This document shows positions 4,912-8,330 of a stretch of DNA of 64,000 nucleotides, piece by piece. This stretch comes from an uncultured Myxococcales bacterium (GTDB lineage Bacteria; Myxococcota_A; Polyangia; JAHFDS01), in NCBI GenBank assembly GCA_964593795.1, contig CAZQJC010000017.1, positions 17,389 through 81,388 of the forward strand, given 5' to 3'. Below the pieces are notes generated by a model that worked only from the letters and a program-made list of their open reading frames with translations, had not been told where the DNA came from and did no database searches. How positions within the stretch are numbered: position 1 is the first letter of the stretch; the number at the start of each line of letters is the position of its first letter. The translations under genes and the position numbers were made by a program.

Positions 4912-6393
4912 ATGTGGCTGGGCGCGGCGCTCGGCGGCTGCCTGATCGGCTCGGCGGGCCCTGCGGCCGCCCAGGCCATCCCGTTCGGCGGCCGCACGGC
5001 GGCGATGGGCGGCACCGGCATCGCGCGCGGCGACGACTCGGCCATGCCCGTCCTCAACCCCTCCGGCCTCGCGCTCGTGTCGAGCTCGACGCTGTCGCTC
5101 TCGGCGTCGCTCTACGCGTTCCACCACGTCAGCATCCCGCACTTCAACGCGGACACGGACACGCTCGACGACGGATTCCGGACCATCGAGGTGTCTCGGC
5201 AAGGCATCGAGTCGAACACCGTCGAGACGCTGCCCTCGTCGCTCGCGTACATCTATCACGTCGGCGGCGAGCACCATCAAGTGCTCGCCGCGAGCGTGAC
5301 CATCCCACGGTCGACGTCCCGACGATTCGTCCAGAACCTCGACCTCGCCGCGCAGGACCCGTCGGGCGGCACTGGCCAGGTGATCCGCGATCAACTCACG
5401 TTCGTGGAGAACTTCGGTCAGTACGTGCTCGGGTTCTCGTACGCGCGCACGCTCTCCGAGAAGCTGCGCGTGGGCGGGACGCTCGGGGTCGTGTACACGA
5501 GCTCGCTCATCACGCAGCAATCGACGCGCCTGTCCGTGCCGGCGACGGCGACGCAGTTCAACTTCATCAACGACTCGCTCACGCGCGAGTCCTCGAGCCT
5601 GGATCTCGACGGCATCTTCGGCGCGCAGCTCGACCTCAGCGACTCGCTCAGCGTGGGCGCGGTGTTCCACACCCCCGCCCTCCACGTCCACGGCAACTGG
5701 GACTTCTCGCAGGACGAGAACCGTTCGGACCCGAGCGGGACGTCCACCCTCCGCAAGGTGCGCGAGAGCGGCGACAGCATCGATGCGCCGCCGATGAAGA
5801 TCGGCGTCGGCGCGGGCTATCGCAAGAGCGACTGCTGGAGCATCGCGGTCGACGTCACCGGCTCGGTCGCGATCAAGAACGACCGCCGCATCAAGGCCGA
5901 CCACACCGAGTCGTCGGTCACGAGCGGCAAGAGCCCGACCGTGACCAGCTCGGTGCTCGACGCCGAGCGCAAGCGCGAGCACCGGGTCAACGGCTCGGTC
6001 GGCGGCGAGATCCGCGTCGGCGACGAGACGTGGATCCGGATGGGCGCATTCACGGACCTCTCGCTCGATCCCGCGGTGGGCCAGAACAAGAACCTCGGCA
6101 ACCAGCTCAATCGCTCCGAGGTGCTCTCGTTCCCGTTCCACCGCTTCGGCGGCACGTTCGGTCTCGGCACCATCACCGGCCCGGTGGACAGCACGATCGG
6201 CATCGCGGCGAGCTACGCGCAGGGGGACACCGTGCGCCTCGACCCCATCCGCTCGGCCACCCCGATGGGCTTCGGCACCGCGCTCGAGAAGACGCCGGCG
6301 CGCGTCTTCGACTTCATGTTCTTCGTGACCGGCACCGTGGATCTGAAGAAGGCCGCCAGCGGAATGGGCGGCAAGCTGGGAGGTGGCTCGTGA
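4912..6393 (+). CDS. Secreted, probable outer-membrane beta-barrel-like protein (unknown family)
   Basis: Start set at ATG 4912 (MWLGAALGGCLIGSAGPAAAQA, a clear Sec signal). Ser/Thr/Gly-rich sequence of alternating-pattern strands. Its stop TGA overlaps the GTG start of the next gene (GTGA). Confidence 0.5.
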   Translation: MWLGAALGGCLIGSAGPAAAQAIPFGGRTAAMGGTGIARGDDSAMPVLNPSGLALVSSSTLSLSASLYAFHHVSIPHFNADTDTLDDGFRTIEVSRQGIESNTVETLPSSLAYIYHVGGEHHQVLAASVTIPRSTSRRFVQNLDLAAQDPSGGTGQVIRDQLTFVENFGQYVLGFSYARTLSEKLRVGGTLGVVYTSSLITQQSTRLSVPATATQFNFINDSLTRESSSLDLDGIFGAQLDLSDSLSVGAVFHTPALHVHGNWDFSQDENRSDPSGTSTLRKVRESGDSIDAPPMKIGVGAGYRKSDCWSIAVDVTGSVAIKNDRRIKADHTESSVTSGKSPTVTSSVLDAERKREHRVNGSVGGEIRVGDETWIRMGAFTDLSLDPAVGQNKNLGNQLNRSEVLSFPFHRFGGTFGLGTITGPVDSTIGIAASYAQGDTVRLDPIRSATPMGFGTALEKTPARVFDFMFFVTGTVDLKKAASGMGGKLGGGS

Positions 6394-8330
6394 ATCGCTG
6401 GGCGCTGCTGCTCGTCCTGCCCTTTTGGACCTGCACCGGGTCCGATCGCGCCGTGACCTGCAAGACCAACGGGGACTGCAAGGGCGCGGGAGAGCAATGC
6501 AACATCGTCACCGGGCTCTGCCAAAAGCCCATGACTGCGGCGCGGGAGGGCGCGATCTACGCGGACTTCAACTGTCCCGTGCGCAGCGTGGGAGGCGTGC
6601 CGCCCGGGATGCCGATGCCGGGCATGCCAGGCATGGGCGGCATGGGCGGATTCGGGCCTGGAATGGGCGGCATGGGTGGCCTCGGGCCTGGAATGGGCGG
6701 CATGGGTGGCTTCGGGCCTGGAATGGGCGGCATGGGTGGCCTCGGGCCTGGGATGGGCGGCATGGGTGGCCTCGGGCCTGGAATGGGCGGCATGGGTGGC
6801 CTCGGGCCTGGAATGGGCGGCATGGGCGGCATGGGCGGCCTCGGACCAGGTCCGGGTGGCCTCGAGGTGCTGTTCCGGCTGGCCGCCGCGGGCGCCGGGG
6901 GCGAAGGCGGAATGGGTCCCGTGATGCCGCCGGACCCGGGCGAGCCAGGCACCTTCCTGGCCAACCTCAACGTGGCGGGCAAGGCGACCTGCGGCTCGAA
7001 GGATCCCACCGAGAGCCCCGCCGAGGCCTGCACGCGCGGGGGCCAGTGCGAGGTGAGCACGCTGGACATCGGCGAGGGCGACAAGCTCGTCGTGATGCTG
7101 CTCGACGTGCGCAAGGGCGGTACGAAGATCGGCACCGGCATGCTCGTGGCCCGCGAGTCGGCGCTCGAGGGATCCTCGGGGCAGCTGAGCGCTCCCCATG
7201 ACGTCTTCGGCGCGCTCTACGCGGTCAAGAGCGGCACGCTGTTGCCCTCCGAGAACCCGAACGAGCTCGCCTTCCTCTTCTGGGGCGGCACCGTCACCGT
7301 GGAGCGGTTCAGCGACCCGAAGGGGCGTGCGCGCATCAAGGGCACCATCGACATGGACCTCAAGGAGCCACCGTCGAATGGCAGCGGGGTCTTCGGGGGC
7401 GAGTGCAAGCTCTCGCGCAGCTGTGCCGCGTCGTCCCTCGCGTCGGAGCGCTGCTATCGAGAGGAGCTCGTCAGCCCGGACTGCGGAGAGCAGAATTGCC
7501 TGCCCCTCAATGACGGCACCTCCAGCGGCTTCTGCAACTCGGCGTGCGAGACGCGCCGCGATTGCGAGCGCTTCGACTCGAAATCCGAATGCGTCACCAT
7601 CCCGGCCTCGACCGTCGGCATCTGCCAGCACAAGTGCGATTCGGACAGCGACTGCTACGCCGCGGCTGGATTCAAGTGCATCCAGCCGGTCGTCTCGGTC
7701 GGTGACATCGGGCAGAAGTTCTGCTCGTTCGAAGGGACGCGCAACCTCCCCCCGCCCGTGGGTGGGGCGGGCGGCCTCGGGGGCTTCGGCCCGGGCGGCA
7801 TGGGTGGCCGCGGCGGCGTGGGCGGCGCAGGCGGCATCGGCGGGCGCGGCGGCATGGGCGGCAGGGGCATGGGCGGCATGGGCATGGGCGGCATGGGTAT
7901 GGGCGGCATGGGCATGGGCGGCATGGGCATGGGCGGCATGGGCATGGGCGGCATGGGCATGGGCGGCATGGGCATGGGCGGGATCGGCGGCATGGGCATG
8001 GGCGGCACCGGCGGGATCGGTGGAATGGGCATGGGCGGCACCGGTGGGACGGGCGGCATGAGCGGCGGATGCTCGGTCGTGCCGCAGGGCGGCTGCGCGA
8101 TGGGGCAGGCCTGCTATCCGGCTACCGGCGCGTCCGTCTGTCGCCCGGCGGGGACGACCGCCAATGGTGCGGCGTGCACGAGCCCCGAGAACTGCGTCGC
8201 CGGCAGCTCTTGCGTGGCAATGACGTGCCGACAGCTCTGCAGCACGACGGCCGGCGTGGGCCCGGCCTGCCCGGCCGGAACGATGTGCCGCACCGGCATG
8301 ATGGGCGGCACGATCGGCGCCTGCTTGTAG
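6390..8330 (+). CDS. Secreted Cys-rich protein with two Gly/Met-rich low-complexity repeat regions (GMGGMGGLGP x ~7; MGMGG x ~10)
   Basis: GTG at 6390 gives VNRWALLLVLPFWTCTGS (signal-like). Several Cys-rich modules (CKTNGDCKGAGEQCNIVTGLC; CETRRDCERFDSKSECV; CDSDSDCYAAAGFKC; C-terminal Cys-rich tail). Coding orientation is supported by the signal peptide and coupling to the upstream gene. Confidence 0.55.
   Translation: MNRWALLLVLPFWTCTGSDRAVTCKTNGDCKGAGEQCNIVTGLCQKPMTAAREGAIYADFNCPVRSVGGVPPGMPMPGMPGMGGMGGFGPGMGGMGGLGPGMGGMGGFGPGMGGMGGLGPGMGGMGGLGPGMGGMGGLGPGMGGMGGMGGLGPGPGGLEVLFRLAAAGAGGEGGMGPVMPPDPGEPGTFLANLNVAGKATCGSKDPTESPAEACTRGGQCEVSTLDIGEGDKLVVMLLDVRKGGTKIGTGMLVARESALEGSSGQLSAPHDVFGALYAVKSGTLLPSENPNELAFLFWGGTVTVERFSDPKGRARIKGTIDMDLKEPPSNGSGVFGGECKLSRSCAASSLASERCYREELVSPDCGEQNCLPLNDGTSSGFCNSACETRRDCERFDSKSECVTIPASTVGICQHKCDSDSDCYAAAGFKCIQPVVSVGDIGQKFCSFEGTRNLPPPVGGAGGLGGFGPGGMGGRGGVGGAGGIGGRGGMGGRGMGGMGMGGMGMGGMGMGGMGMGGMGMGGMGMGGMGMGGIGGMGMGGTGGIGGMGMGGTGGTGGMSGGCSVVPQGGCAMGQACYPATGASVCRPAGTTANGAACTSPENCVAGSSCVAMTCRQLCSTTAGVGPACPAGTMCRTGMMGGTIGACL
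6631..6850 (+). repeat. Near-perfect 30-bp tandem coding repeat (ggaatgggcggcatgggtggcctcgggcct, ~7 copies)
   Basis: Read directly: each unit encodes GMGGMGGLGP/GMGGMGGFGP, with only synonymous or single-base differences between units. Confidence 0.8.
7860..8045 (+). repeat. 15-bp tandem coding repeat (ggcatgggcatgggc, ~10 copies; encodes MGMGG)
   Basis: Read directly: ggcatgggcatgggcggcatgggtatgggcggcatgggcatgggc... with very few substitutions. Confidence 0.8.

What the first reader, a model, noticed from the sequence alone, without database searches (positions are those of the whole stretch)
6390..8330. Secreted Cys-rich protein with Gly/Met repeats that are near-perfect tandem repeats at the DNA level
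The repeat regions GMGGMGGLGP x ~7 (30-bp unit) and MGMGG x ~10 (15-bp unit) are encoded by almost identical DNA units. That implies recent expansion and a substrate for slipped-strand length variation. Met-rich Gly-flanked motifs of the MGGM / MxxM type are characteristic Cu(I)/Ag(I)-binding motifs in periplasmic copper-handling proteins (CopA/PcoA/CusF-type Met motifs). The flanking Cys-rich modules (CxxxxDCxxxxxxC) resemble small disulfide-knot extracellular domains common in myxobacterial secreted proteins. This may be a metal-sequestering or surface-matrix protein of variable length.
Basis: partly seen in the sequence, partly recalled or inferred. Interest (0 to 1): 0.65.

Follow-up and report, generated by a model that had tools for sequence, protein, structure and literature searches.

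The report
Repeat-bearing lipoprotein partnered with FadL-type barrel
The gene encodes a disulfide-rich probable outer-membrane lipoprotein, always found next to a FadL-type outer-membrane channel gene, whose two glycine/methionine repeat tracts are real, recently expanded and fast-changing disordered segments; nothing found here ties them to copper handling.

Summary
Window 6390-8330 (+) is a 646-aa ORF with a 30-bp array (6626-6830, about 6.8 copies) and a 15-bp array (7851-8040, 7 near-perfect copies plus degenerate flanks). Rare codons recur in register, so the units arose by recent DNA duplication.

The copper reading is not supported:
- The tracts contain no His.
- No copper domain or copper gene was found in what was scanned.
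- Met is not conserved in tract 1 of one ortholog, and a distant relative has an Asp/Gly/Pro linker at the position of tract 2.
- The same G/M repeat occurs in an unrelated secretin.

What is there is a rare, unannotated family: 10 hits among 1.84 billion cluster representatives.
- **Core:** lipobox Cys, a 4-Cys knot, a predicted 8-stranded soluble beta-barrel and a 14-Cys module.
- **Partner gene:** in 8 of 9 loci it directly follows a FadL/TodX-family outer-membrane barrel gene, usually overlapping it by 1 or 4 nt.
- **Tract 1:** inserted in the barrel's beta1-beta2 loop.
- **Tract 2:** tethers an extra 12-Cys C-terminal domain.

Both tracts are predicted disordered and differ in length and unit among the three orthologs. 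The most likely role is an uncharged GGX-type flexible spacer on an outer-membrane lipoprotein partner of the barrel. Weak multivalent Cu(I) binding is chemically possible but untested. Interest is moderate to low.

The parts
4912..6393 (+). Upstream partner gene: a 493-aa outer-membrane beta-barrel of the FadL/TodX/PorV superfamily. Its stop overlaps the start of the target gene.
   Evidence: NCBIfam gives sub-threshold hits to PorV_fam (E 2.7e-8) and BamG (E 5e-8). It is a full-length homolog (BLASTP 1e-49) of the L005 barrel, which passes Pfam Toluene_X gathering at 39.7 against 29.7 bits. A homolog lies directly upstream of the lipoprotein in 8 of 9 loci.
4733..4762 (+). The only sigma-70-like promoter match in 4300-9900, upstream of the barrel gene. 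Weak evidence.
   Evidence: TTGACG-18-TACAGT, 9 of 12 matches. No intrinsic-terminator-like site was found in 4300-9900.
6390..8330 (+). Target gene: 646-aa Cys-rich probable lipoprotein with two Gly/Met repeat tracts.
   Evidence: Orthologs P0002 and P0003.
6390..6434 (+). Signal peptide MNRWALLLVLPFWTC, ending at Cys15, the probable lipidated Cys. The lipobox FWTC is non-canonical.
   Evidence: Cys15 aligns with the Cys of canonical L-x-[GA]-C lipoboxes in P0008-P0012 and P0014, and is invariant in alignment A4.
6459..6521 (+). N-terminal 4-Cys knot (C24, C30, C37, C44).
   Evidence: Conserved in 8 of the 9 sequences of alignment A4. P0014 lacks it.
6552..6584 (+). Barrel strand beta1 (residues 55-65, 'ADFNCP'), lying upstream of tract 1.
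   Evidence: F60 and C62 are invariant in alignment A4. The AlphaFold2 model places a strand at 55-65, equivalent to strand 63-72 in the P0008 model.
6588..6863 (+). Tract 1: a Gly/Met/Pro-rich disordered insertion (residues 67-158) between barrel strands beta1 and beta2. It contains the 30-bp tandem array at 6626-6830.
   Evidence: TRF and units in register. pLDDT is about 30-40. Absent from the ~300-aa relatives and only 24 residues in P0003.
6927..7394 (+). Remainder of the predicted 8-stranded soluble beta-barrel (residues 180-335), including the conserved WGG motif.
7395..7730 (+). Middle Cys-rich module: 14 Cys, motif SPDC...C.P..DG...G.C...C...DC.
   Evidence: The Cys columns are invariant across the family. 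pLDDT exceeds 90 in the P0008 model. No Pfam or PDB match.
7755..8069 (+). Tract 2: a Gly/Met-rich disordered tether (residues 456-560). It contains the 15-bp array at 7851-8040.
   Evidence: TRF, units, pLDDT about 30. Present in all three orthologs at 105, 87 and 68 residues.
8070..8327 (+). C-terminal 12-Cys domain, specific to the long subfamily.
   Evidence: Alignment A8. Sub-threshold Dickkopf_N resemblance in 3 of 3 members, best E 3.5e-4. Model confidence is only about 55.

Best explanation
The gene encodes an exported, disulfide-rich lipoprotein. It is made together with a FadL-family outer-membrane beta-barrel and most likely works with it as a two-protein outer-membrane module.

The folded core has three parts: a 4-Cys knot, an 8-stranded soluble beta-barrel of the kind that usually holds small hydrophobic ligands, and a 14-Cys module. 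This core is shared with ~300-aa lipoproteins that have no repeats.

In this sub-lineage two uncharged Gly-rich tracts of the (GGX)n / GPGXX type, with X mostly Met, were added. One is a ~90-residue loop between barrel strands beta1 and beta2. The other is a ~100-residue tether carrying an extra 12-Cys domain. Both behave as intrinsically disordered, elastic spacers that let parts of the protein reach away from the membrane anchor.

Their DNA is a tandem array that grows, shrinks and is homogenised by slippage or unequal recombination. Because the units are multiples of 3 bp, this changes length but not reading frame.

**Shown:** the repeats, their recent duplication, variation among orthologs, predicted disorder, the conserved gene pair with overlapping stop and start, and the FadL-family affiliation of the partner.

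**Inferred:** lipidation, outer-membrane location, physical complex with the barrel, the spacer role, and hydrophobic-ligand handling.
For: **Repeats**
- Orthologs carry arrays at the same two sites, with different units and lengths.
- pLDDT is about 30 across both tracts, against about 75-90 for most of the core.

**Family and core**
- Exhaustive HMMER found the repeat-free ~300-aa relatives with canonical lipoboxes and the same Cys pattern.

**Partner gene**
- A barrel gene lies directly upstream in 8 of 9 loci. The overlap is 1 or 4 nt in 7 of them.
- The partner belongs to the FadL family.
- Precedent for a FadL-family barrel docking a lipoprotein: BamG-BamH in Flavobacterium johnsoniae (PMC12611786).

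**Tract chemistry**
- The tracts have no His, no Cys and almost no charge, and 2P+G is 0.60-0.87. From my own knowledge (Rauscher et al. 2006), that places them in the elastomeric, disordered range.
- GGM tails of GroEL are flexible polyproline-II-type segments according to the paper's title (PMC12571646; not read further).

**G/M tracts elsewhere**
- G/M repeats also occur in a secretin (P0007) and in the neighbouring lipoprotein 9857-11719.
Against: - No experiment or multimer model links the lipoprotein physically to the barrel.
- The lipobox of this subfamily has T at position -1 (FWTC, AATC, ALTC), which is unusual, so signal peptidase I cleavage cannot be excluded.
- About 20 % Met is kept in two of three orthologs in tract 1 and enriched in all three in tract 2. 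ATG is an AT-rich codon in a 70 % GC genome. Met may therefore be selected for something more specific than spacing.
- One divergent relative (P0014, loci L010 and L011) lacks the upstream barrel.
Confidence: 0.55

Rival explanations
1. Metal capture. The roughly 40 Met thioethers in the two flexible tracts bind Cu(I) or Ag(I) weakly but multivalently, so the protein buffers or sequesters soft metal ions in the envelope or at the surface.
For: - The tracts hold 17 MxxM and 10 MxM spacings.
- Met-only sites bind Cu(I) with moderate affinity (log beta about 8), and Met-rich domains bind 'statistically and dynamically' (PMC11840665).
- Met is kept at about 20 % in two orthologs although ATG is compositionally disfavoured.
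Against: - No cupredoxin, multicopper-oxidase, CusF or CopC domain.
- No His in the tracts. The same paper stresses that His raises affinity and accompanies Met in CopC and CusF.
- No copper genes among the ORFs scanned between 285 and 33284.
- Tract 1 of P0003 has 1 Met in 24 residues. P0015 has an Asp/Gly/Pro linker at the position of tract 2.
- The conserved partner is a FadL-type channel for hydrophobic molecules, not a metal transporter.
- The same repeat occurs in a secretin.
Confidence: 0.12
2. Active hydrophobic 'methionine bristle'. The G/M tracts are flexible, mildly hydrophobic tentacles that capture hydrophobic ligands or unfolded polypeptides and pass them to the lipoprotein barrel or the FadL-type channel. 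The analogy is to GroEL's (GGM)n tails and the Met-rich SRP54 M domain.
For: - The partner belongs to the family that imports hydrophobic compounds (PMC12611786).
- Tract 1 emerges from a loop of the putative ligand-binding barrel.
- The variable X in GGX is nearly always hydrophobic: M, F, L, I or V.
- GGM tails are known functional flexible elements (plus my own knowledge).
Against: - The argument is purely by analogy.
- The repeat-free ~300-aa relatives manage without the tracts.
- P0003 replaces tract 1 with a short Ala-rich segment.
Confidence: 0.15
3. Surface-matrix or adhesin protein. The Gly/Pro/Met tracts act as elastomeric segments of a cell-surface or extracellular-matrix protein, and the Cys-rich domains are the binding modules.
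For: - GPGXX and GGX periodicity with 2P+G of 0.66-0.84.
- Three disulfide-rich modules and an exported protein.
Against: - No adhesin-type domain such as VWA or lectin was detected.
- The conserved coupling to a FadL-family barrel is not explained by this reading.
Confidence: 0.08
4. The copy numbers are an assembly product. The arrays exist, but their length in this window is collapsed or expanded by short-read assembly.
For: An independent Logan contig from SRR13076506 is identical to window 4091-6681 and ends inside array 1. Identical stretches within array 1 exceed a 31-mer.
Against: - Each array is only about 200 bp, so it can be spanned by paired or longer reads.
- The gene stays in frame.
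- Orthologs in two other assemblies have arrays at the same positions.
Confidence: 0.1

Closest known systems
BamG-BamH of the Flavobacterium johnsoniae BAM complex (PMC12611786); more loosely PorV with its type IX secretion cargo
   Same: A FadL-family outer-membrane barrel is paired with a lipoprotein. The window barrel gives weak NCBIfam hits to PorV_fam and BamG.
   Different: - The scores are far below the cut-offs: 32 against 250 bits for BamG, 34 against 90 for PorV_fam.
- The lipoprotein here is an unrelated Cys-rich beta-barrel protein.
- The phylum is different (Myxococcota-like).
- No BAM or type IX secretion context is present.
- A physical interaction has not been tested.
FadL/TodX outer-membrane transporters for hydrophobic compounds (Pfam PF03349)
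   Same: The partner gene family reaches the Pfam gathering score in one cassette member. The window protein is a full-length homolog of that member.
   Different: - Canonical FadL and TodX work without a dedicated lipoprotein, to my knowledge.
- The window barrel itself is below the Pfam threshold.
- A profile of the cassette barrels finds no solved structure by sequence.
Met-rich Cu(I) segments of CueO, PcoA/CopA, PcoB, CopI and Ctr1
   Same: Flexible segments with many Met at MxM and MxxM spacing, located in the oxidising envelope.
   Different: - Those segments are attached to copper-handling folds or transporters and usually contain His or Asp.
- They sit in copper-regulated operons.
- None of this applies here.
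Gly-Met flexible tails and regions: GroEL C-terminal (GGM)4M, Sis1 G/M region
   Same: GGM periodicity, disorder and lack of charge (titles and abstracts, plus my own knowledge).
   Different: Those are short (about 13-50 residues), cytosolic and belong to chaperones. The tracts here are about 100 residues, in the envelope, and encoded by young tandem DNA arrays.
Soluble 8-stranded beta-barrels (UPF0311/DUF3237, allene-oxide-cyclase-like, dirigent, avidin, Treponema Tp0751)
   Different: Sequence identity is only 3-13 %, and there is no Foldseek or sequence match. The resemblance is at fold level only.

Membership tests
Periplasmic copper-handling Met-motif proteins (CopA/PcoA multicopper oxidases, CusF, CopC, PcoB, CopI) | A recognised copper-handling folded domain (cupredoxin or multicopper oxidase, CusF OB fold, CopC) | tested here: not met
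   Pfam and NCBIfam scans of the protein and its relatives show no such domain.
Periplasmic copper-handling Met-motif proteins | Met motifs accompanied by His or Asp ligands (for example MDHSxM, Met2His) | tested here: not met
   There is no His and no Asp or Glu in the 92- and 105-residue tracts.
Periplasmic copper-handling Met-motif proteins | A copper-homeostasis gene neighbourhood (cop, cus, pco, cueR, cusRS) | tested here: not met
   Pfam scans of 22 further ORFs between 285 and 33284 found nuo genes, ftsH, folP, glmM, an ECF sigma factor, ftsEX, an S41 protease and similar, and no copper genes. The rest of the window was not scanned.
Periplasmic copper-handling Met-motif proteins | Met motifs conserved among orthologs | tested here: inconclusive
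   Tract 2 is Met-rich in all three orthologs (21, 21 and 10 % Met). Tract 1 is Met-rich in two, but P0003 has 1 Met in 24 residues. P0015 has an Asp/Gly/Pro linker where this protein has tract 2.
Periplasmic copper-handling Met-motif proteins | Measured Cu(I) or Ag(I) binding | not testable with these tools
   This needs peptide competition assays or NMR.
Bacterial lipoproteins | Signal peptide ending in a lipobox with an invariant Cys | tested here: inconclusive
   The N-terminus has a basic start, a hydrophobic stretch and then Cys15. Cys15 aligns with the Cys of canonical L-x-[GA]-C lipoboxes in relatives. The local lipobox has T at -1 (FWTC), and no dedicated predictor was available.
FadL/TodX family (PF03349), for the upstream partner 4912-6393 | A match to the family profile at or above the curated threshold | tested here: inconclusive
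   The window protein shows no Toluene_X hit, only sub-threshold PorV_fam and BamG hits. Its full-length homolog in L005 (BLASTP 1e-49) scores 39.7 against a cut-off of 29.7.
FadL/TodX family, for the upstream partner | A 14-stranded barrel with an N-terminal hatch and a lateral opening | not tested
BamG equivalog (NCBIfam NF053685) | A score at or above the 250-bit cut-off | tested here: not met
   32.4 bits.
Myxococcus cysteine-rich repeat and other curated Cys-rich modules | A profile match | tested here: not met
   NCBIfam gave no hit at E <= 1. Dickkopf_N scored 19.5 against a cut-off of 25, and the EB module 14.4 against 24.3.
Contingency (phase-variable) repeat loci | A repeat unit not divisible by 3, or placed so that slippage switches expression on and off | tested here: not met
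   The units are 30 and 15 bp and in frame. Only length variation is possible.
Variable-number tandem-repeat protein tracts | Copy number or unit differs between related genomes | tested here: met
   The three orthologs differ in tract length and in DNA unit. No second strain of the same species was available.

The most novel reading that the evidence does not exclude
The gene pair could be an undescribed two-component outer-membrane system confined to Myxococcota-like, mostly uncultured bacteria. It would consist of a FadL-type barrel plus a disulfide-rich 8-strand-barrel lipoprotein. One sub-lineage would have evolved long Met-rich disordered 'tentacles' that actively capture soft metal ions or hydrophobic ligands and feed them to the barrel, with tentacle length tuned by repeat slippage.
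Probability: 0.12. Interest if true: 0.65.

Novelty: new variant of a known kind. Interest (0 to 1): 0.35.

Why it matters
If the inferred pairing is real, it adds a second lineage to the BamG-BamH case in Bacteroidota, one in which a FadL-family barrel has a dedicated lipoprotein partner. It also defines a small family with no Pfam or NCBIfam model. The G/M tracts are a clean natural example of young, in-frame tandem arrays building disordered envelope segments. They give a simple test bed for asking whether Met-only, His-free Gly-rich tracts bind Cu(I) at all. On present evidence it is a lineage-restricted hypothetical protein with low-complexity spacers, and nothing here calls for a change in how copper homeostasis is understood.

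Tried and rejected
- **Whole-protein homolog search.** It returned only two true orthologs. The other hits (P0004-P0007) matched through the G/M repeat alone and were set aside as homologs, though they show that such repeats occur in unrelated proteins.
- **Profile word-index search with alignment A4.** It returned only 3 proteins.
- **Search with the C-terminal Cys domain, alignment A8.** Nothing was returned, not even the query itself, so it is uninformative.
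- **Scan of genome contigs.** It found only the already known MAG, 'Myxococcales bacterium nzgw250'. The window's own genome is not among the species representatives, so its taxon is inferred only from about 70 % GC and this closest ortholog.
- **Scans of metagenome contigs.** The first found nothing. The last found one locus, L008.
- **PDB sequence searches with family profiles.** No relevant hit.
- **Foldseek against the PDB.** No significant hit. The afdb50 library was unavailable.
- **tblastn of the three Cys modules against the window.** No paralogs, only noise.
- **Exact look-up of P0001 in the contig index.** Not on record.
- **Minus-strand ORF 6213-8474.** Rejected as a shadow ORF, because the Cys and WGG conservation is in the plus frame.
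- **On/off phase variation.** Rejected because the units are multiples of 3 bp.

Full report
**1. The observation**

The ORF at 6390-8330 (+) encodes 646 aa. Its GTG start overlaps the TGA stop of the upstream ORF 4912-6393 as GTGA, and NCBI's own protein P0001 starts at the same codon.

Tandem Repeats Finder reports two arrays:
- a 30-bp array at 6626-6830 (6.8 copies, 94 % matches, score 354);
- a 15-bp array at 7851-8040 (12.9 copies, 82 % matches, score 255).

Written in codon register, there are six G[F/L]GPGMGGMG units and seven GMGMG units, each array flanked by degenerate copies. Mean pairwise DNA identity is 0.95 and 0.98. In array 1 the codons CCT, GGA and GGT recur at the same position in 5-6 of 6 units. 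Other ORFs in the window have third-position GC of about 0.9-0.97, so these are rare codons. That is the signature of recent duplication of DNA, not of selection converging on a peptide.

**2. Coding strand and relatives**

Only two proteins among 5.8 billion are true orthologs:
- P0002, 618 aa, from MAG GCA_023248855.1;
- P0003, 521 aa, from a Logan assembly.

All 35 Cys positions except those lost with deleted segments, together with the LPSENPN, WGG and SPDCGE motifs, are conserved in the plus frame. The long minus-strand ORF is therefore a shadow ORF.

Both Gly-rich tracts sit at the same two positions in all three orthologs, but they differ in length. Tract 1 is 92, 61 and 24 residues. 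Tract 2 is 105, 87 and 68 residues. They also differ in DNA unit: 36- and 60-bp units in L001, some copies 100 % identical. The arrays have evidently expanded independently in each lineage. No second strain of the same species could be found.

An independent short-read contig is identical to window 4091-6681 and stops inside array 1. The exact copy number in this assembly is therefore unverified.

**3. The wider family**

An exhaustive HMMER search with the repeat-free middle of the protein found only 10 proteins among 1.84 billion cluster representatives. Six are full-length ~300-aa proteins, and a seventh (P0013, 127 aa) is a fragment. Six of the ~300-aa relatives were aligned in A4. They share these features:
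- a canonical lipobox (L-x-[GA]-C);
- a 4-Cys knot (absent from P0014);
- a 'G.F.CP' strand;
- a beta-rich domain with a WGG motif;
- a Cys module with invariant Cys spacing.

They have no Gly/Met tracts. Cys15 of the window protein aligns with their lipobox Cys.

A 628-aa relative, P0015, has a DGGLPPPPDAGGGSQ repeat linker before a C-terminal Cys-rich region, at the place where the window protein has G/M tract 2.

No Pfam, NCBIfam or PDB sequence match covers the core. The C-terminal 12-Cys domain resembles Dickkopf_N only below threshold. All members come from metagenomes or MAGs and carry no informative name.

**4. Structure**

The full-length AlphaFold2 model gives pLDDT of about 75-90 for most of residues 180-450, with short dips. 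It gives about 30 for both G/M tracts and about 55 for the C-terminal domain.

The repeat-free relative P0008 models well, with pLDDT 83.6 and pTM 0.75. The model is an up-and-down run of beta strands followed by a compact Cys module.

Strand beta1 (residues 55-65, 'FNCP') lies before tract 1 and strand beta2 after it. Tract 1 is therefore a ~90-residue insertion in a loop of the barrel, not an inter-domain linker. Tract 2 is a true tether to the extra C-terminal domain.

**5. Genomic context**

A homolog of the 493-aa upstream protein sits directly before the lipoprotein gene in 8 of 9 distinct loci: the window, L001, L002, L004, L005, L008, L009 and L012. The exception is the most divergent member, P0014. 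Stop and start overlap by 1 or 4 nt in seven loci, which suggests translational coupling. L009 has an 82-nt gap.

The L005 copy passes the Pfam gathering score for Toluene_X (FadL/TodX), at 39.7 against 29.7 bits. The window protein is its full-length homolog (E 1e-49) and gives sub-threshold PorV_fam and BamG hits.

A precedent for a FadL-family barrel that docks a lipoprotein is BamG-BamH in F. johnsoniae (PMC12611786).

Around the pair lie the nuo operon on the opposite strand, ftsH, folP, glmM, an ECF sigma factor, ftsEX and an S41 protease. No copper genes were found.

**6. The copper idea**

The chemistry allows it. The tracts hold 40 Met with 17 MxxM and 10 MxM spacings. Met-only sites bind Cu(I) with log beta of about 8, and Met-rich domains bind 'statistically' (PMC11840665).

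Every genomic test failed, however:
- no copper-handling fold;
- no His, Asp or Cys in the tracts;
- no copper gene neighbourhood;
- Met is not conserved in tract 1 of P0003;
- P0015 has a non-Met linker at the position of tract 2;
- the conserved partner belongs to a family that handles hydrophobic molecules.

The same GMGMGG repeat also interrupts a secretin (P0007) and other unrelated proteins. A G/M-rich stretch follows the lipobox of the neighbouring lipoprotein at 9857-11719.

What is conserved is GGX / GPGXX periodicity with an uncharged, mostly hydrophobic X, and 2P+G of 0.60-0.87. From my own knowledge, that is the composition of disordered elastomeric segments.

**7. Conclusion**

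The most likely reading (confidence about 0.55) is an outer-membrane lipoprotein partner of a FadL-type barrel. Its two G/M tracts are young, slippage-prone, disordered spacers.

The rivals are:
- a Met-specific role in hydrophobic-ligand capture (0.15);
- Cu(I)/Ag(I) buffering (0.12);
- an assembly-distorted copy number (0.10);
- a matrix or adhesin elastomer (0.08).

The family is unannotated and rare, so this is a new variant of a known kind. It is of moderate to low interest unless the pairing or a Met-specific function is demonstrated.

Noticed in passing
window 30654-33284 (+): An 876-aa ORF matches the Major Vault Protein shoulder domain (E 2.9e-24) and the Vault_3 repeat (E 5.7e-9). 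This is a bacterial MVP-like protein.
   Followed up: no
window 9857-11719 (-), G/M stretch at 11375-11518: A 620-aa probable lipoprotein ('AVGC' lipobox) has a Gly/Ser/Ala/Met-rich tether after the lipobox, followed by a domain with weak TolB and PD40 propeller hits. It is conserved at 52 % identity in the ortholog locus L002, in convergent orientation. It is the only other G/M-rich segment in the 64-kb window.
   Followed up: partly
window 8473-9462 (+): A 329-aa probable lipoprotein ('LPAC' lipobox) carries repeated 'ARGSD.ALW'-like motifs that suggest a propeller or lectin-like repeat. It has no Pfam or NCBIfam hit and is not conserved downstream of the cassette in L002.
   Followed up: partly
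L007 (Logan SRR13076506), identical to window 4091-6681: This independent short-read contig is 100 % identical to the window and terminates inside the second unit of array 1. The repeat breaks short-read assembly.
   Followed up: yes
proteins P0004-P0007 (one search hits): Long GMGMGG repeats occur in unrelated proteins, including a secretin (P0007; Pfam PF00263 and PF03958). P0005 switches at its C-terminus into 'AWVWAAWAWAAW', which looks like another reading frame of a GGCATG-type repeat, probably a frameshift inside the repeat (my inference; its DNA was not examined).
   Followed up: partly
window 29879-30862 (-): A metallo-beta-lactamase-fold protein has a sub-threshold match to anti-Pycsar Apyc1 (40.8 against 50 bits). 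Next to it, at 28616-29878 (-), is a cytochrome c domain protein.
   Followed up: no
window 24454-26379 (+): A 641-aa protein with two FHA domains (E 6.7e-34). It lies downstream of the ftsE-like (20553-21323), ftsX-like (21194-22225) and S41 protease (22947-24290) genes.
   Followed up: no
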